DNA of 57,153 nt from Candidatus Omnitrophota bacterium (lineage in GTDB: Bacteria > Omnitrophota > Gorgyraeia > 2-01-FULL-45-10): the NCBI GenBank assembly GCA_016935115.1, contig JAFGRN010000002.1, forward strand, positions 69,748 to 126,900. The letters run 5' to 3'. The position numbers were made by a program, and so were the translations under genes. Numbering within the stretch: position 1 is the first letter of the stretch; the number at the start of each line of letters is the position of its first letter. The notes below the pieces were generated by a model. It had not been told where the DNA came from, did not search any database, and saw nothing but the letters and a program-made list of their open reading frames with translations. Below are positions 14,224 to 52,433 of this stretch, in pieces.

Positions 14224-15621
14224 TCAGATGAAATTGGGATGTTCTTTATCCTGGTCCTTGACAACCAGAAATTTCAGGAATAGTACGCCTGTCCTGAAGA
14301 AATCAACCGGGCTCTCAACCATGACCTTGCACAGCGAAAAGAGCGTGTTTACCCGCCAGTAGAATGCCTTGTATAATTCTTTCTCTATCGATATCATCTT
14401 CTTTTCATAAGATGCGTCCTTGAAGAGATTGCGGTAGGGAAACAGCTTGAAGTCCATGCTGCCCTTCAATCTGTCAAAGAGCGGAGTGCCCGGATACGGC
14501 GTCAATTTGCTCACTATGACAAAATCGAGCTTCGACCTGCGCAACCCCTCCTTATTTTTCGCCATGTCATCCGCCGTCTCCACCGGCGCGCCTATCATCA
14601 TGAATCCGGAGGATTGTATGCCGGCGTGCCTCACCCAATCTATCTTCCGGAGGATCTCCGACGCTTTACTGCCCTTATTGTAATAATCCAGTACCTTCTG
14701 CGAAAAACTCTCCACGCCTATGTATATCCTCCTGCAACCCGACCTCTTCATGACGGCCAGGAGGCCGCGGTCGAGCGTATCGACACGGCTCAGGCAGGTC
14801 CACCTGATTCTGAGCCTCTTTCTGATGATAAGGCCGCATATCTTCTCCACCCTCGCCTTATCTATCACAAAAGTGTCGTCCGTAAAACGGAAGGTCCTGT
14901 ACCCCTTGCCCATCAGGTATTCTATCTCCGAAACTATATTCTCAGGAGACCTCATGACGAGCTTCCTGCCGTATGATGTTACACAGTATGTACAGCCGAA
15001 CGGACACCCCCTGGCGGACTGAATAAGGGCTACCGGGCCCCGGAGGAGCATCTCCCTGTAGTTATTCGCCGGGAGCATCGACGGATCCGGGAACGGCATC
15101 TTATCCAGATCGGCTATCCGCTCCGGGGGGTTGATCACATCACTCCCCCTGCAGGCAAGGCCGGGTATCCCCTCCGGCTTCGCGCCGCTCTCCAGGGCTT
15201 TTATGAGCCTGGAGAGGCATAATTCGGCTTCGCCTTTTATGATGTAGTCGATGTTGGTATTACTGAGGACCTCCAGCGGGAAAACCGATGGATAATAGCC
15301 AAATGCTACCATCTTCACGCCGGGGGCGCGGTTCTTTATGCTCACCACCGTGTCGATATCGCCGGCAAAGCATTCCATTCCGGTCATGGTGACGATCATA
15401 TCCGGCTTCACGTCATCCATCACACCCATAACGGAGTCCAGATCCTTCTCCTCGGCTATAGCATCCACCACTGAGACTTCGGACCTGTTCCATTCCTTCA
15501 CGGCGGAAGCGCAGGACAACAGCTCCTGCGGCGGGAAGAGAAACGAGCGGGAATTATAAGAACCGCAGAAGCGCCTTATTATCCTGTCCTTGTTCGGAAG
15601 ATTCAGAAACATTACCTTCAT
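14224..15621 (-). CDS. B12-binding-like-domain radical SAM protein (divergent N-terminus)
   Basis: ARGCPFGCTYC, IKGEAE, GVESFS. N-terminal PPQELL replaces PLGL. Confidence 0.88.
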   Translation of the reverse strand: MKVMFLNLPNKDRIIRRFCGSYNSRSFLFPPQELLSCASAVKEWNRSEVSVVDAIAEEKDLDSVMGVMDDVKPDMIVTMTGMECFAGDIDTVVSIKNRAPGVKMVAFGYYPSVFPLEVLSNTNIDYIIKGEAELCLSRLIKALESGAKPEGIPGLACRGSDVINPPERIADLDKMPFPDPSMLPANNYREMLLRGPVALIQSARGCPFGCTYCVTSYGRKLVMRSPENIVSEIEYLMGKGYRTFRFTDDTFVIDKARVEKICGLIIRKRLRIRWTCLSRVDTLDRGLLAVMKRSGCRRIYIGVESFSQKVLDYYNKGSKASEILRKIDWVRHAGIQSSGFMMIGAPVETADDMAKNKEGLRRSKLDFVIVSKLTPYPGTPLFDRLKGSMDFKLFPYRNLFKDASYEKKMISIEKELYKAFYWRVNTLFSLCKVMVESPVDFFRTGVLFLKFLVVKDQDKEHPNFI

Positions 15622-15669
15622 AACCGATTATCCTTCATCTATCAGGGGTAGCGACGGAACTTGCGCCAG

Positions 15670-16254
15670 CTATTTTCTGCAAATAAAACAGAACTCCGCT
15701 TCCTCAAATCCTCCGACGAGAAAGCACCATAGCCTTGAGCACAGGAAAGGCGAAAGATTGGCAAAAAGATCCGCACAATTCCCGAAAACGACTCCGAAGT
15801 AATAGGCAAATAATGGCAGGGTCTTCTTCTTAAGGTACGGCTGGGCAAACCACCGCAGCCGCACTCTATCGCATATAAACTCTACACCGCAATAACCGCC
15901 CTGGAAGGACGGATTAAAATAATACGGAAATGACACATCAAAGCCGCGTTTGTGTTCCGGATGAGTAAACCCCCTGCTGAAATGGGGCACCCTTACCAAT
16001 ACCCTCCCTCCGGCCCTCGATATCCTGTGCAACTCCTTCATCGCCCGGAACGGGTCCGAAAGATGCTCGAGGACATGGTCGGCTTCTATAAGTTCGAAAG
16101 AATTATCCGCAAAGGGATATGGCATGCTGTTTAAATCGTGAACTACATCAGGCTCCAGCTGGCCGTGAACATCCAAATTAACATAGCCTTCCTTCTTAAA
16201 TCTACCGCAGCCAAGATTAAGTTTTTTTAAGCCCTTTAACTCTCTATTTTGCAT
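15670..16254 (-). CDS. Small class I methyltransferase-domain protein
   Basis: KLNLGCG, YVNLD, DVVHDL, HVLEHL, VPH. Confidence 0.85.
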   Translation of the reverse strand: MQNRELKGLKKLNLGCGRFKKEGYVNLDVHGQLEPDVVHDLNSMPYPFADNSFELIEADHVLEHLSDPFRAMKELHRISRAGGRVLVRVPHFSRGFTHPEHKRGFDVSFPYYFNPSFQGGYCGVEFICDRVRLRWFAQPYLKKKTLPLFAYYFGVVFGNCADLFANLSPFLCSRLWCFLVGGFEEAEFCFICRK

Positions 16255-16292
16255 AATTTTTCATATCCTAACCTTTTTGGACAACGCCGTAG

Positions 16293-48470: not shown

Positions 48471-50063
48471 TCACAGACGAACGTACTCCAGCTTCACCAG
48501 GCCGACAATGATCTTTTTAAATTTAACATGATCGAATAACTTATAATATAAAGCCCTGATCACTTTATACATCCTCGAAAGATCGGAGGAGCCCGGCTTT
48601 ATCATGACTTTGAATTCCGGATCTCTTGGCCTGTAGCCGCTGATATTGTACTCGGGGAGTTCTATAAAACGCTTATTATCGATAAAGTACCTGCTCCAGT
48701 CCAGCTTGTTATACATATCCAGGCTCATTCCGAAACGCGTCTCATCGTTAAATGCAAGCTTCATCAGCCCCGTATATTCATAGAACCTGTAAAACCTTCC
48801 CATGGCATTCATATCGGATGCCTGATCGTCGAATATGAAGGTGGTATTATTTTTCATGACGCTGCTGGCCCTGAAGTTCTCGACCAGAGACAGCTGTTTA
48901 AACCAGTCCTTTTGATAGTCCACATAGGCCTTAAAATTCACCGAAATGAATAACGCTATCATCAGCGAATATAAAAAAAGGCGAGCATGAGAACCCCATC
49001 TCAACCTATTGCAGAAAAGCCTCATCCCATAATATAGAGCCAGGCTGAATCCCAGAGGCAGTAAGAGCTGATTACGGCTATCCCAATCGATGAACCTCGG
49101 TATATGATCAACCGCAAGATACGGAAATGCCGCGGCAAAGAACAGTATGAGGCCCAGAAAAAATAATTTTATATCACTTTTCCCGCTCAGCGCTGCCGCA
49201 ATTACCGTTTTTGACAAGAACAGAAATACGGCAAAACCAAAGATGATACACAGGCACGCGTTTGAGAGAAACATGTTGAAAGCGTTGTTAATTACGGCGA
49301 CAAAGGAGTCATTGAAAGCCTGTATCGATCTTATCGGCGCGGATAAGACGGAACTCAAAGCAATATTGTTATGCCAGGCATAGAAGTCGCATGGCTTTAA
49401 AAAAACGTTTTTCGCGATCCAAAAAGCCGGCGCTATCACCAGAAAATCCGTGTATCTCAACATACCGACAATAAATTCTCCCGGCGTCCCGATGCGGCCT
49501 CTTTCTTTATACAGAATGAAAAGAATAATCGATACCATATAGAGAACAAGCAGGGAATTGGTGCAAAATGAAATGATAAATATGAGAAGGGTGGCCAGCC
49601 TGAGCATGATACCGCGAGTCTTAAAATACCTGGAAAATAACATAAGGCCCAGGAAGAATGCGAAGTAACTTATCGCGTACGTAAAGGCGCATAAAGCTAT
49701 CCGGGCAAAATTTACAGGAAGGATCGCGAATAATAGAACCACGGACAGTCTGGAGCCATCATCCATCTCTTTTATCTCTTTTAGCGTTTTATTCAGGAAC
49801 AAAGCTGACAGAAGAAATAAAAAAAATACTGCCAGCCTGGGTATAATCAGGGAATCAAAGGAAAAAATGGAGGAGAAGATGTATCCATCCCATGGGTTAC
49901 CATATGACTTCGTCATGTTCATTATGGCCGGCTTCGCCACATGGTAGAAGCACCACCCGTCGATATACACACCGTCGTTGAAGAGCATGATCCCGTAGGC
50001 AAGGGAATAAAAAAGGGATATTATGAAATTTTCGCTCTTGCAGATATATTTCAGGATCTTCAT
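48471..50063 (-). CDS. Multi-pass membrane protein, putative GT-C glycosyltransferase (GtrII-like)
   Basis: YIDGW acidic first loop, about 11 TM helices, SRNQLL motif, C-terminal periplasmic domain. Confidence 0.6.
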   Translation of the reverse strand: MKILKYICKSENFIISLFYSLAYGIMLFNDGVYIDGWCFYHVAKPAIMNMTKSYGNPWDGYIFSSIFSFDSLIIPRLAVFFLFLLSALFLNKTLKEIKEMDDGSRLSVVLLFAILPVNFARIALCAFTYAISYFAFFLGLMLFSRYFKTRGIMLRLATLLIFIISFCTNSLLVLYMVSIILFILYKERGRIGTPGEFIVGMLRYTDFLVIAPAFWIAKNVFLKPCDFYAWHNNIALSSVLSAPIRSIQAFNDSFVAVINNAFNMFLSNACLCIIFGFAVFLFLSKTVIAAALSGKSDIKLFFLGLILFFAAAFPYLAVDHIPRFIDWDSRNQLLLPLGFSLALYYGMRLFCNRLRWGSHARLFLYSLMIALFISVNFKAYVDYQKDWFKQLSLVENFRASSVMKNNTTFIFDDQASDMNAMGRFYRFYEYTGLMKLAFNDETRFGMSLDMYNKLDWSRYFIDNKRFIELPEYNISGYRPRDPEFKVMIKPGSSDLSRMYKVIRALYYKLFDHVKFKKIIVGLVKLEYVRL

Positions 50064-50070
50064 GGCAATC

Positions 50071-51060
50071 CTATTTCTTATTCACCCGGAACCACTCAAC
50101 CGTGCGCTCGAGCCCTTCCCTGAACCCTGTGACTTTACCTATCTTAAGGAGCCGCTTCATCTTCGATATATCGGCGCGCGTCTTACGCACGTCTCCGCTT
50201 CTCTTCGGAGCGAATTTTGCTTCTATATCAGTACCGAGAATCCTATTGAGCTCATTGACTATGCCTATGATGGGTGTCGTCGCGCCGCATGCGATATTAA
50301 AGACCTCTCCCGATATGCCGGGCGTTACGCAGGCCCTCAGGTTTGCCTCAACGACGTTGCCCACGTATGTAAAGTCCCTCGACTGCTTCCCGTCCCATTC
50401 GACAACCGGCCGCTGGCCCTTGGCCATGGTAAAGAGAAACGCCGGGATCACGGCAGAATATTTCGAATCCGGATTCTGTCTCGGGCCGAAGACATTGAAA
50501 TACCTGAGCGAAACTGTTTCAAGGCCGAATGTCCTGGCAAATACGATACAGTAGTGCTCCGCGGCTAATTTCGCCACCCCGTAAGGAGATATCGGCGAAG
50601 GCGTATCCGTCTCTTTCTGCGGGAAGTGCTTTGCGTCACCGTATGCCGAACTCGACGATGCATATACCACCCTTTTTACCTTATGGTCGCGCGAGGCGGC
50701 CAGAAGATTCAGCGTGCCGCGGACGTTTATATCATTGGTGGTGAAAGGGTCGTCGACCGATTTCGGAACCGAACGGAGAGCCGCCTGATGGATCACATAA
50801 TCCACGCCCTTAAGGGCCTTTTCGAGGTCCTTCCTGTCGCGTATATCACCCTTAATAAGCCTGATATGCTTAAGAAATGGTTCCAGGTTCTCCATCTTGC
50901 CGGTGAGAAAATTGTCGAGGACTGTAATTCCGTCGACTTTAGGGACAGTCCCCACCTTGTGAAAACTACCGTCTGGGGACAGTCCCTTCAATCGGACAAG
51001 CTCCTCTACTATATTCGAACCTATGAAACCCGCGCCCCCGGTAACGAGATATTTAGCCAT
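50071..51060 (-). CDS. NAD-dependent epimerase (WbpP-like UDP-GlcNAc(A) 4-epimerase) carrying a short in-frame insertion
   Basis: [54 protein letters not shown]. Confidence 0.9.
   Translation of the reverse strand: MAKYLVTGGAGFIGSNIVEELVRLKGLSPDGSFHKVGTVPKVDGITVLDNFLTGKMENLEPFLKHIRLIKGDIRDRKDLEKALKGVDYVIHQAALRSVPKSVDDPFTTNDINVRGTLNLLAASRDHKVKRVVYASSSSAYGDAKHFPQKETDTPSPISPYGVAKLAAEHYCIVFARTFGLETVSLRYFNVFGPRQNPDSKYSAVIPAFLFTMAKGQRPVVEWDGKQSRDFTYVGNVVEANLRACVTPGISGEVFNIACGATTPIIGIVNELNRILGTDIEAKFAPKRSGDVRKTRADISKMKRLLKIGKVTGFREGLERTVEWFRVNKK
50941..50987. repeat. Palindromic element of two GGGACWGTCCC units, inside a CDS
   Basis: AGGGACAGTCCCCA (50941-50954) and TGGGGACAGTCCCT (50974-50987) form a 14-bp inverted repeat with one mismatch and a 19-nt spacer; each arm is itself palindromic. 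Confidence 0.8.
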
Positions 51061-51064
51061 GTTT

Positions 51065-52369
51065 TTAAAGCCTTATTATTTTGCCGCGCTTGACGGTATT
51101 TTTCAGGACATTCCTTGTATCTATTATCAGCTTCGAGTTCTTAACTATGAAATCGTAATCGACCGCCGTATGGTCGGTCACGATAATGACGCAATCGGCG
51201 GACCTGAATGTCCCCCTGGAAAATTTCGAACAGTGGAGATTGATATTGTGTATTTTAAGGTACGGGAAGAAGGGGTCATAATACGAAACGTCCGCGCCCT
51301 TATTCACCAGCATCTCTATTATCTCCAGGGCCGGGGATTCGCGCAGGTCCTTCACGTCTTTCTTATAGGCCACTCCGACAATGAGCACCCTGGATCCGTT
51401 AAGCGCTTTCTTCTCTGAATTAAGGCCTTCTATAGTCTTGCGCACCACATATTGCGGCATCTTTGAATTCACGTGCGAAGCAAGGTCTATGAAGCGCGCC
51501 TCGAAGCCGTGGACACGGGCCTTCCAGGAAAGGTATATGGGATCGACGGGGATGCAGTGGCCTCCTACGCCAGGGCCGGGATAGAACGGCATAAAACCGT
51601 ACGGCTTAGTCTTCGCGGCGTCGATCACCTCCCAGATATCTATCTTAAGCTTGTCGCACATAAGGAGTATCTCGTTAACCAGCCCTATATTCACTATCCT
51701 GAAAGTATTCTCCAGAAGTTTTACCATCTCCGCGACCCTGGCCGAAGATACCGGCACAACGGTTTCGAGCGCCTGTTCATAGAGGGCCCTGGCCATTTCC
51801 GTCGATTTGGCCGAAATGCCGCCTATTATCTTCGGAGTATTCTTCGTATCATATTTCGGGTTACCGGGATCGACGCGCTCCGGAGAGAAAGCGAGATAGA
51901 AATCTTCCCCTTCCTTTAAACCGTCCTCTTCCAGCACGGGCAGCATGACCTCTTCGGTAGTGCCGGGATAAGTCGTGGATTCCAGCACGATGATCTGGCC
52001 GGGTTTCATGTACTGTTTTATCTTCTTTACGGCTGAGACTATGTAAGAGACATCCGGCTCCCTGGTCTTGTAAAGCGGGGTGGGAACACATATTATGACC
52101 GCGTCGAGCGCCTTTATCACGCTGAAGTCCGTCGTCACCTCAAACGACTTATTGCGGGTCACCGCCGCAAGTTCGGACCTGGGCACATCGAGGATATAAG
52201 ACTCCCCCTTCTTTATCTTGGCGACCCTTCCTTTATCTATATCGATTCCATGGACTTTGAATCCGGCTTTCGCGAATGTCACTCCGAGCGGCAACCCGAC
52301 ATACCCCAGGCCTATTATACCTATCTTTGCTTTCCTGCTAAGTATCCTCTTCTTCAATTCTTTCAGCAT
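51065..52369 (-). CDS. Nucleotide-sugar 6-dehydrogenase (WbpA/WecC-like UDP-GlcNAc dehydrogenase)
   Basis: IGLGYVGLPL, ICVPTP, LESTTYPGTT, AFSPER.DPGN, KLLEN, GPG.GGHCIPVDP. Start MLKELKK at 52369; the track start (52411) lies within a repeat. Confidence 0.93.
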   Translation of the reverse strand: MLKELKKRILSRKAKIGIIGLGYVGLPLGVTFAKAGFKVHGIDIDKGRVAKIKKGESYILDVPRSELAAVTRNKSFEVTTDFSVIKALDAVIICVPTPLYKTREPDVSYIVSAVKKIKQYMKPGQIIVLESTTYPGTTEEVMLPVLEEDGLKEGEDFYLAFSPERVDPGNPKYDTKNTPKIIGGISAKSTEMARALYEQALETVVPVSSARVAEMVKLLENTFRIVNIGLVNEILLMCDKLKIDIWEVIDAAKTKPYGFMPFYPGPGVGGHCIPVDPIYLSWKARVHGFEARFIDLASHVNSKMPQYVVRKTIEGLNSEKKALNGSRVLIVGVAYKKDVKDLRESPALEIIEMLVNKGADVSYYDPFFPYLKIHNINLHCSKFSRGTFRSADCVIIVTDHTAVDYDFIVKNSKLIIDTRNVLKNTVKRGKIIRL

Positions 52370-52384
52370 GAAACCTCTCTTTTT

Positions 52385-52433
52385 AGATTGCTTCGTCAGC
52401 GAGGAAGCCATCTACAGCTTCCTCGCAATGACG
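52385..52433. repeat. Intergenic palindromic element (RPE/REP-like)
   Basis: Perfect 10-bp stem GCGAGGAAGC (52399-52408) / GCTTCCTCGC (52417-52426) with an 8-nt loop, flanked by AGATTGCTTCGTCA and AATGACG; minus strand reads CGTCATTGCGAG...GACGAAGCAATCT, as recalled for RPE-like repeats. Confidence 0.75.

What the first reader, a model, noticed from the sequence alone, without database searches (positions are those of the whole stretch)
50941..50987. Palindromic DNA element inserted in frame into a sugar epimerase
Seen: a 47-bp element with GGGACWGTCCC arms encodes KGLSPDGSFHKVGTVP, between helix A (VEELVR) and strand B (ITVLDNF) of the Rossmann fold, where family members normally have a loop of about 4 residues; here it is about 21. 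The frame and all catalytic motifs are intact. Known: Rickettsia palindromic elements insert in frame into surface loops of proteins. Inference: a different repeat family doing the same thing in this lineage, creating new protein sequence from selfish DNA.
Basis: partly seen in the sequence, partly recalled or inferred. Interest (0 to 1): 0.62.

Follow-up and report, generated by a model that had tools for sequence, protein, structure and literature searches.

The report
Hairpin repeat translated inside sugar epimerase
A 45-base hairpin-forming repeat, from a family scattered through Omnitrophota genomes and linked elsewhere to a small tyrosine transposase, sits in frame in a surface loop of a sugar epimerase gene and adds 17 amino acids. 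It is a clear new example of a phenomenon already known from intragenic REPs and Rickettsia palindromic elements.

Summary
Two identical GGGACAGTCCC words lie 34 bp apart (window 50942-50986) inside a TviC/WbpP-like epimerase gene on the minus strand. They are read as KGLSPDGSFHKVGTVP.

- **Empty site:** 24 orthologs and the nearest solved structures lack exactly these 17 residues. Six orthologs carry variants at the same site.
- **Structure:** AlphaFold places the insert as a low-confidence coil between helix 12-24 and strand 42-49. All catalytic motifs are intact.
- **Repeat family:** the element has one other copy in this 1.4-Mb genome, between genes and terminator-like. It occurs in 116 of 401 Omnitrophota genomes, against 0 for a reversed control.
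- **Position in genes:** about 40% of 69 sampled copies lie in frame inside long ORFs, including CheR, MiaB, HemW, ComEC, Memo and giant proteins.
- **Transposase link:** in three other phyla the same 13-mer flanks RAYT-type tyrosine transposase genes on both sides. This genome has three such genes, none next to a copy.

The element is a REP/TIR-type selfish repeat tolerated in a protein loop. Mobilisation by a Y1 transposase is inferred, not shown. Intragenic REPs and RPEs are already described, so this is a new member of a known kind. Two points stay unexplained: the same loops are used repeatedly by different repeat families, and the synonymous sites of the element are frozen.

The parts
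50071..51060 (-). Host gene: an extended-SDR NAD-dependent UDP-sugar 4-epimerase (TviC/WbpP/WbgU-like), 329 aa, intact
   Evidence: ORF. Pfam PF01370, 5.8e-60. Best NCBIfam hit is TviC at 231 bits, below its 760 cut-off. Closest PDB entries are 10ke, WbgU 3ru7 and WbpP 1sb8. Catalytic motifs are invariant.
50938..50988 (-). Net in-frame insertion of 51 nt (residues 25-41, KGLSPDGSFHKVGTVPK) relative to empty orthologs. The boundaries are uncertain by about 3 nt.
   Evidence: Protein and codon alignments with 24 empty orthologs. A 17-residue gap in the PDB alignment. AlphaFold coil with pLDDT below 50 at residues 31-38, between H12-24 and E42-49.
50942..50953 (.). Arm 1, GGGACAGTCCCC on the plus strand (GLSP on the coding strand)
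   Evidence: Identical in the sibling copy C10:17518 and in all family members.
50954..50974 (.). 21-nt spacer or loop, ACCTTGTGAAAACTACCGTCT. It is not self-complementary.
   Evidence: It differs at 7 of 21 positions from the spacer of the C10 copy; the two elements agree at 41 of 49 positions over element plus 2 flanking nt each side (my count). It differs at 1 nt from the G004 ortholog.
50975..50986 (.). Arm 2, GGGGACAGTCCC on the plus strand (GTVP on the coding strand). It begins with GGGGACAG, which fits the TIRYT motif GGGGWSAS.
   Evidence: The motif is described in PMC3733652.
50934..50994 (.). Extended imperfect inverted repeat that includes short flanks (21-nt arms, 81% complementary)
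   Evidence: Fold of the mRNA-sense strand: -33.1 kcal/mol, z = -3.1.

Best explanation
The insert is one copy of a small, non-autonomous, hairpin-forming repeat. It consists of two head-to-tail copies of the near-palindrome GGGGAC(A)GTCCCC separated by a 21-nt spacer. It belongs to the REP/TIR type of element that travels with RAYT-type (HUH, Y1) tyrosine transposases.

A copy landed in the loop between helix A and strand B of the Rossmann fold of a UDP-sugar 4-epimerase. That loop lies on the side of the sheet away from the NAD site. The arms have no stop codon in any of the six frames, and this spacer has none in the frame used. The unit changed the length by a multiple of three, so the gene stayed open and the 17 extra Gly/Pro/Ser/Thr-rich residues are tolerated as a floppy surface loop. 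The insertion was then inherited through speciation in this genus and has been decaying or being remodelled.

**Shown here:**
- the empty site and the filled site;
- that the element is a repeat;
- that many copies are in frame in other genes;
- that the arm flanks RAYT-type genes in other phyla.

**Inferred:**
- a Y1 transposase moved this copy (my odds about 0.55);
- the loop is functionally neutral.
For: 1. **Empty versus filled site.** 24 orthologs, including other classes, have no insert. Six have variants at the same codon position. Solved homologs lack the 17 residues.
2. **Repeat family.** There is a second copy in the same genome, agreeing at 41 of 49 positions, between genes and with AAAAAATA/TATTTTTT flanks. 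Arm pairs occur in 116 of 401 Omnitrophota genomes, with up to 37 copies, against 0 of 401 for the reversed control. Spacers are alike among copies within a genome, so the whole unit multiplies. A 27-nt short form, arm-GAA-arm, is a sub-family of its own.
3. **The element is defined at DNA level, not by the peptide.** It is read in different frames and orientations in different genes (GLSP/GTVP, GTVP/GDCP, GQSP/GTVP, RDSP/GQSL) and also lies between genes.
4. **Coding copies are common.** Up to 30 of 69 copies are internal to ORFs of at least 250 aa, and 4 lie at C-terminal tails. Pfam domain matches run across the insert in CheR, ComEC, HemW, MiaB, Memo and an epimerase paralog.
5. **Transposase link.** The own genome has three Y1 genes whose only NCBIfam hit is REP-associated tyrosine transposase (70-72 bits). 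Two of them are flanked by inverted repeats carrying GGGGTCAG or GGGGACAG, the published GGGGWSAS motif of TIRYT ends. Among 120 loci from other phyla chosen only for arm pairs, all three Y1 genes found are flanked on both sides by GGGGACWGTCCCC. One is 41% identical to the own-genome C15 protein.
6. **Structure.** The model has pLDDT 86 and pTM 0.88, and the insert is a low-confidence coil.
Against: - Only two copies exist in this genome, which is 82% complete.
- No Y1 gene in this genome, or among 25 Y1 genes of six high-copy Omnitrophota genomes, is flanked by full arms. Three of those are flanked only by TIRs that start GGGGACAG.
- No target-site duplication or fixed target word was found.
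- Between G000 and G004 all 15 third-codon positions inside the element are identical, against 17 of 24 and 31 of 60 in the flanking codons. This points to a constraint on the nucleotide sequence itself (RNA or DNA structure, protein recognition, or conversion between copies) and does not fit purely neutral junk.
- The gene tree needs at least three gains or losses of the insert, so the history is not a simple single insertion.
Confidence: 0.8

Rival explanations
1. The hairpin is kept because it works at the RNA or DNA level inside the gene. It could be a transcription pause or attenuator, an RNase or mRNA-stability site, or a protein-binding site. The extra peptide would then be a by-product. 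On this view the family spreads because cells use it, for instance as a bidirectional terminator, rather than because it is selfish.
For: Synonymous sites of the element are frozen between two species (15 of 15, against about 57% nearby). Arms are invariant across classes while spacers drift. Many intergenic copies have A-tract/T-tract flanks like bidirectional terminators, and the C10 copy is flagged as terminator-like. The fold is more stable than shuffles.
Against: The coding copy has no U-run and is not flagged as a terminator. Copies sit in unrelated genes at unrelated positions and in both orientations. Copy number is patchy, from 0 to 37 among close relatives. In G001, G013 and G015 the epimerase copy is decaying. 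There was no Rfam match. A function for some intergenic copies does not exclude a mobile origin.
Confidence: 0.12
2. The loop was not brought by a mobile element. It arose locally, by slippage or duplication or by selection for a Gly/Pro-rich loop, and the likeness to other palindromes is convergence.
For: The arms are short, direct repeats can arise by slippage, and a (GTCCACA)4 microsatellite occupies the equivalent loop of a paralog in G008.
Against: The intergenic sibling copy in the same genome agrees at 41 of 49 positions, spacer included. Identical 12-nt arms occur in hundreds of copies, against 0 for the reversed control. The same DNA is read in other frames elsewhere. The arms flank transposase genes.
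Confidence: 0.03
3. The insert is an assembly or binning artefact of this metagenome-assembled genome.
For: The genome is a draft of 79 contigs. Reads could not be checked.
Against: The same insertion, differing by 1 nt, is in the ortholog of an independently assembled species (G004). Variants are in four more genomes. The frame is intact.
Confidence: 0.01

Closest known systems
REP / REPIN sequences with RAYT (REP-associated tyrosine transposases), including intragenic REPs (Di Nocera et al. 2013, PMC3733652)
   Same: Both are short GC-rich palindromic repeats, often in pairs that can fold into a longer hairpin, and both are dispersed and patchy between relatives. Y1/HUH transposase genes are flanked by the repeat, seen here in three other phyla. 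Copies inside known genes that encode about 20 extra residues are described, most abundantly in Opitutus terrae (PVC group) and R. conorii.
   Different: There is no GTAG head: the base before TAG-GGAC is G in only 3 of 69 copies, and the consensus is A/T-T-A. The two units are head-to-tail, both with centre base A, a dimer type reported as rare for GTAG REPs. About 40% of copies are in ORFs, so the family is not mainly extragenic. In this genome no RAYT-type gene is next to a copy.
TIRtrons: TIR-associated tyrosine transposases (TIRYT) whose terminal repeats share GGGGWSAS (PMC3733652, section 16)
   Same: The arm begins GGGGACAG, which fits GGGGWSAS. Own-genome Y1 genes on C19 and C20 are flanked by inverted repeats carrying GGGGTCAG and GGGGACAG. 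One of these TIRs is itself a family with 13 loci. Three Omnitrophota Y1 genes have TIRs starting GGGGACAG.
   Different: The element here is a 45-nt double palindrome, not a long TIR. Its descent from such a TIR (the two ends of the C20 TIR joined give TAGGGAC..GTCCCC) is my inference only.
Rickettsia palindromic elements (RPE; Ogata et al. 2000, as summarised in PMC3733652 and PMC10969869)
   Same: Both are palindromic selfish repeats inserted in frame into many unrelated housekeeping genes, tolerated in surface regions, and creating new peptide segments.
   Different: RPE-1 elements are longer, a point taken from my own knowledge and not tested here. They occur in a different phylum and show no sequence likeness, and no RAYT link is established for them. 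The present element is 27-52 nt.
Bacterial MITEs that add peptide segments (for example Coxiella burnetii MITEs, PMC5896051)
   Same: Both are non-autonomous repeats with inverted ends, some in frame in genes.
   Different: No target-site duplication was found here. The ends are near-palindromes in direct orientation. The likely partner is a single-strand Y1 transposase rather than a DDE enzyme.

Membership tests
REP/RAYT system (REPtron) | Short GC-rich palindromic sequence repeated at dispersed sites | tested here: met
   There are 2 copies in the own genome. Arm pairs occur in 116 of 401 genomes of the phylum, against 0 for the reversed control. More than 120 contigs in many phyla carry them.
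REP/RAYT system (REPtron) | A RAYT (Y1/HUH) gene flanked by the repeat | tested here: inconclusive
   Met in Acidobacteriota, Planctomycetota and a Eubacterium MAG (L161, L103, L075). Not met for the 3 Y1 genes of the own genome or for 25 Y1 genes of six high-copy Omnitrophota genomes.
REP/RAYT system (REPtron) | Conserved unpaired GTAG tetranucleotide at one end | tested here: not met
   The flank consensus is AAAAATA|GGGAC...GTCCC|TATTTTT. G stands at the position required for GTAG in 3 of 69 copies. The window copy reads TTTA|GGGAC.
REP/RAYT system (REPtron) | Predominantly extragenic location | tested here: not met
   35 of 69 copies lie between genes, up to 30 are internal to ORFs of at least 250 aa, and 4 are at C-terminal tails.
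TIRtron / TIRYT repeats | GGGGWSAS motif in the repeat | tested here: met
   Arm 2 begins GGGGACAG. The motif definition comes from PMC3733652.
TIRtron / TIRYT repeats | Repeat present as terminal inverted repeats around a Y1 gene in the same genome | tested here: not met
   The C19 and C20 genes are flanked by other repeats (AAAAAAGGGGTCAGAGT; GGGGACAGGTCTGAAGC...ACGTCCCTA), not by this element.
Rickettsia palindromic elements (RPE) | In-frame insertion into conserved protein genes without loss of the frame | tested here: met
   Seen in the epimerase and in CheR, ComEC, HemW, MiaB, Memo and a paralog.
Rickettsia palindromic elements (RPE) | Sequence relatedness to RPE families, and rickettsial host | not tested
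   No RPE sequence was compared. The host is Omnitrophota. The resemblance is in behaviour only.
MITE | Terminal inverted repeats plus target-site duplication | tested here: not met
   No direct repeat brackets the insert when filled and empty sites are compared. The flanks show only an A/T-rich preference.
Extended SDR UDP-sugar 4-epimerase (TviC/WbpP/WbgU group), the host gene | GxxGxxG, NAD-ribose Asp after strand B, and the S...YxxxK catalytic set | tested here: met
   G8/G11/G14, D49, S135-138, Y160 and K164 are invariant in 30 orthologs. PDB hits: 10ke 1.4e-71, WbgU 1.3e-68, WbpP 8.8e-65. The NCBIfam TviC score of 231 bits is below its equivalog cut-off of 760, so substrate specificity is not assigned.

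The most novel reading that the evidence does not exclude
GGGGACWGTCCCC may be the core of one cross-phylum REP superfamily served by a widespread RAYT lineage. It is free of stop codons in all six frames and encodes loop-friendly Gly/Pro/Ser/Thr peptides. It may colonise coding sequence routinely rather than by accident.

Once a protein loop has been opened by one such hairpin, it may become a preferred landing or replacement site for further hairpin repeats, including unrelated REP families. The same loops of conserved enzymes would then be remodelled again and again in different genera. Under this reading the frozen synonymous sites reflect continuing recognition or conversion of the translated copies by the transposase.
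Probability: 0.3. Interest if true: 0.6.

Novelty: new member of a known kind. Interest (0 to 1): 0.42.

Why it matters
This case shows cleanly, with an empty site, a filled site and several stages of decay, how selfish hairpin DNA becomes protein sequence in a little-studied phylum of very small bacteria.

It also links a 13-base palindrome found in many phyla to a tyrosine transposase. For annotation it has two practical uses. It warns that short GLSP/GTVP/GDSP/GQSP peptides and odd loop insertions in metagenome proteins are repeat-derived. It also warns that such repeats can shift predicted start codons.

If the hot-spot behaviour is real, these repeats are a regular source of loop-length variation in housekeeping enzymes.

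Tried and rejected
- **Rfam:** a search of four loci holding copies gave no match.
- **Literature:** a full-text search for the motif found only eukaryotic or viral primers and the like, nothing bacterial.
- **Target-site duplication:** none emerged from filled/empty codon alignments or from a flank consensus of 69 copies. The flanks show only an A-rich left and T-rich right preference and a near-constant T after the right arm.
- **Y1 gene next to a copy within the phylum:** none found in the own genome or around 25 Y1 genes of six high-copy genomes.
- **Phage carriage:** only 6 hits in 2.9 million viral contigs, so there is no sign that phages are the main vehicle.
- **Single-origin test:** the gene tree forces at least 3 changes. 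I could not decide between recurrent insertion, precise loss, and replacement.
- **ORF tally is an upper bound:** the heuristic over-counts. It scores the own-genome C10 copy as internal, although that copy lies upstream of the likely start MLKKIL.

Full report
**1. Observation**

The window's plus strand at 50940-50988 reads TA GGGACAGTCCCC ACCTTGTGAAAACTACCGTCT GGGGACAGTCCC TT.
- Two exact copies of GGGACAGTCCC lie 34 bp apart. With one mismatch allowed, the window has 3 hits against 0.71 expected.
- Each arm is itself a near-palindrome (GGGAC-A-GTCCC). The two arms are therefore direct repeats and can also pair with each other, leaving a central A.A mismatch (U.U in the mRNA). An imperfect inverted repeat extends to 50934-50994.
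- The mRNA-sense strand folds at -33.1 kcal/mol, z = -3.1 against shuffles.
- The element lies inside the minus-strand ORF 50071-51060, 329 aa. This is an NAD-dependent epimerase (Pfam PF01370, 5.8e-60).
- Its nearest solved relatives are a capsular polysaccharide protein (10ke), WbgU and WbpP. The best NCBIfam hit is TviC at 231 bits, far below that model's equivalog cut-off of 760.
- The next gene upstream in the operon is a UDP-sugar dehydrogenase.

**2. Empty site**

Orthologs were found in 36 of 41 relatives.
- In the protein alignment, 24 orthologs read EELVRRGE-KVRVLDNF with no insert. These include members of other families and classes. Six genomes carry an insert at exactly that place.
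- At the codon level:
  - G004 (same genus) has both arms perfect and one spacer change.
  - G002 (same genus) has the two arms separated by only GAA (GLSPKGTVP).
  - G001 (same genus) keeps a left arm with one change. Its right half is replaced by a different palindromic repeat, GTCATTGCGAGGCCGCAAAGCGGCCGAAGCAATCTC (VIARPQSGRSNL).
  - G013 and G015 (other genera) have decayed arms. G015 reads its left arm in another frame.
- The PDB alignment shows a gap of exactly 17 residues.
- GxxGxxG, D49, the Ser cluster and Y160/K164 are invariant.
- An AlphaFold model built from the 30-sequence alignment has pLDDT 86.4 and pTM 0.88. It shows helix 12-24, then coil 25-41 with pLDDT below 50 at residues 31-38, then strand 42-49.
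- In a Rossmann fold, helix-to-strand connections lie on the face opposite the dinucleotide site. This is established fold knowledge, and it makes a floppy loop here plausibly harmless.

**3. The element is a repeat**

- The assembly is 1.40 Mb in 79 contigs, 82% complete, 50% G+C. It holds exactly one other copy, at C10:17518-17562. That copy lies between a gene end and the start of a signal-peptide protein. It agrees with the window copy at 41 of 49 positions (my count over the element plus 2 flanking nt each side) and is bracketed by AAAAAATA and TATTTTTT. A simple scan flags its right arm plus T-run as terminator-like. The coding copy is not flagged.
- The long form (spacer 15-30 nt) occurs in 18 of 61 relatives with 1-7 copies each. 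The reversed-pattern control gave 0 hits.
- Spacers are alike among copies within a genome (for example G040, G039 and G051), so the whole 45-52-nt unit multiplies.
- A 27-nt short form, GGGACTGTCCCC-GAA-GGGGACTGTCCC, occurs in 12 of 61 relatives, with up to 6 copies.
- Across the phylum, 116 of 401 genomes have at least one pair, with up to 37 copies. The control was 0 of 401.
- In all 69 copies taken from relatives, both arms have the same centre base.
- The host phylum is Omnitrophota. Contigs of relatives G023 and G005 match by length public records named Omnitrophica/Omnitrophota. Earlier notes on this same genome say the same.

**4. Coding copies are common**

- Of 69 distinct copies from relatives, up to 30 are internal to ORFs of at least 250 aa, 4 sit in C-terminal tails, and 35 lie between genes or just 5' of a gene. 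The internal count is an upper bound, because it includes the C10 copy.
- Pfam domain matches run through the insert in CheR, ComEC (DUF4131), a HemW-type radical SAM protein, MiaB, Memo and an epimerase paralog. Copies form the tails of ThiC, a LarB-like AIRC protein and DinB.
- Several copies lie in ORFs open for more than 1000 codons. In G035 and G005, differently framed variants sit just ahead of the Peptidase_C39-like segment of what look like orthologous giant proteins.
- The same DNA is read as GLSP...GTVP, GTVP...GDCP, GQSP...GTVP or RDSP...GQSL, depending on strand and frame. The repeated entity is therefore the DNA, not a peptide motif.
- Read directly from the sequence, the arms have no stop codon in any of the six frames.
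- With the usual TA flank, the GLSP frame would start with TAG. The real GLSP insertions instead have AAG, CAG or GAG there.

**5. Link to a transposase**

- Y1_Tnp (PF01797) genes occur in 51 of 61 relatives and three times in this genome. The only NCBIfam match of all three is REP-associated tyrosine transposase, at 70-72 bits against a cut-off of 80.
- None is next to a copy of the element.
  - The C19 gene is flanked by inverted AAAAAAGGGGTCAGAGT.
  - The C20 gene is flanked by inverted copies of TAGGGACGTTTTCAAAATTAGCTTCAGACCTGTCCCC, itself a family with 13 loci in this genome.
- Di Nocera et al. (PMC3733652) describe Y1 genes flanked by long terminal repeats ('TIRYT') that share the motif GGGGWSAS. 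GGGGTCAG and GGGGACAG fit it, and the arm studied here begins GGGGACAG.
- Three of 25 Y1 genes in six high-copy Omnitrophota genomes are flanked by inverted repeats that start GGGGACAG. None has full arms.
- The direct link comes from outside the phylum.
These came from Omnitrophota, Planctomycetota, Actinomycetota, Acidobacteriota, Bacteroidota, Bacillota (including cultured Lederbergia, Salinibacillus and Neobacillus), Pseudomonadota and others. The arms often form arm-plus-spacer arrays.
  - I searched these loci, chosen only for the arms, with the three own-genome Y1 proteins. This found three Y1 genes, and each is flanked on both sides by GGGGACWGTCCCC.
  - They lie in an Acidobacteriota MAG (41% identical to the C15 protein, E 4e-55), a Planctomycetota MAG (T-form pair on one side, A-form triple on the other) and a Eubacterium MAG. 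All three hit the same NCBIfam model at 68-80 bits.
- This is the REPtron layout. I therefore read the arm as the REP of a RAYT lineage, and the epimerase insert as a non-autonomous copy. That a Y1 enzyme moved this particular copy remains an inference.

**6. What does not fit neatly**

- **History of the insert.**
  - A maximum-likelihood tree of the epimerase with the insert columns removed places the insert bearers in three groups. These are the genus clade (100/97), G015 as sister to empty G017 (100/97), and G013 as sister to empty G010 (99/80).
  - At least three gains or losses are therefore needed.
  - All filled genes share the junction residues K-G... and ...P-(K/E)-V-(D/G)-(G/E), which empty genes lack. 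That argues for common descent of the filled state, or for a very specific target.
- **A second loop with the same behaviour.** The loop EANILAAT...EVFNVACG of a 51%-identical paralog varies between genomes:
  - empty in G009, G042, G043 and G045;
  - GLSPKGTVP in G005 and G034;
  - the other REP family (HCDEPRRGDEAIS) in G017;
  - a (GTCCACA)4 run in G008;
  - an unrelated insert in G020.
  
  Together with G001, this suggests that a loop once opened is re-used or overwritten by other hairpin repeats.
- **Frozen synonymous sites.** Between G000 and G004 the gene is 77% identical in DNA. Third codon positions agree at 17 of 24 upstream and 31 of 60 downstream, but at 15 of 15 inside the element. 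The single change there is non-synonymous. The nucleotide sequence of the translated copy is therefore itself constrained or homogenised. I cannot tell whether that reflects RNA structure, protein recognition, or conversion between copies.

**7. Comparison with what is known, and verdict**

- Intragenic REPs that encode 20-30 residues are described in several species, most abundantly in Opitutus terrae and R. conorii (PMC3733652).
- In-frame Rickettsia palindromic elements and peptide-adding MITEs are also known (PMC10969869, PMC5896051).
- The present element behaves like these and carries the TIRYT motif. It lacks the GTAG tag, is a head-to-tail pair, and is not mainly extragenic.
- It is a new member of a known kind.
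- Earlier notes of this scan report the same 13-mer in frame in other genes and phyla. I used them as leads only. The transposase flanking and the GGGGWSAS fit were checked here independently.

Noticed in passing
window 52386-52431 (- strand): A copy of a second, much more abundant palindromic family (GTCATTGCGAGG...CGACGAAGCAATC; roughly 50-110 hits per 10- to 13-mer in this genome) lies at the 5' end of the dehydrogenase ORF 51065-52411. The first 14 codons (MASSLTKQSKKRGF) are probably repeat-derived, and the true start is probably the Met of MLKELKK.
   Followed up: partly
L016 (G001:C32), epimerase codons about 24-52: In the G001 ortholog the right half of the GGGACWGTCCC element is replaced by a copy of the GTCATTGCGAGG...GAAGCAATC family, read as VIARPQSGRSNL. 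This is one palindromic repeat nested in or overwriting another, still in frame.
   Followed up: partly
own genome C20:about 15060-16260 (outside the window): A RAYT/TIRYT-type gene is flanked by inverted copies of a 37-nt repeat, TAGGGACGTTTTCAAAATTAGCTTCAGACCTGTCCCC. The repeat has 13 loci in the genome, often with a partial tandem duplication. Its two ends joined give the arm studied here.
   Followed up: partly
own genome C19:about 870-1610 (outside the window): A second Y1 gene is flanked by inverted AAAAAAGGGGTCAGAGT, which fits the GGGGWSAS motif.
   Followed up: no
L208 (G005:C37), L195 (G034:C12), L239 (G017), L241 (G008), L240 (G020): A 51%-identical epimerase paralog has its own variable loop (EANILAAT...EVFNVACG). 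In different genera it is occupied by GLSPKGTVP, by the other REP family, by a (GTCCACA)4 microsatellite or by an unrelated insert. The G005 gene has a second, three-arm insert after NFSSGKEENL.
   Followed up: partly
L007 (G035:C6:20809-23853) and L169 (G005:C68:34381-37532): ORFs open across the whole 3-kb loci (more than 1000 codons) carry two copies each of the element. One copy lies just ahead of a Peptidase_C39-like segment in both genera, but with different spacers and reading frames.
   Followed up: partly
L043-L162 (other phyla): In Actinomycetota, Acidobacteriota, Planctomycetota and others the 13-mer often forms tandem arrays of arm plus a repeated 15-26-nt spacer. Examples are L051, L053, L121 and L133 (18-nt period).
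   Followed up: no
window 48471-50063 (- strand): A 530-aa, very hydrophobic ORF directly downstream of the epimerase has no Pfam match at 1e-3. It is possibly a glycan polymerase or a glycosyltransferase-like membrane protein.
   Followed up: no
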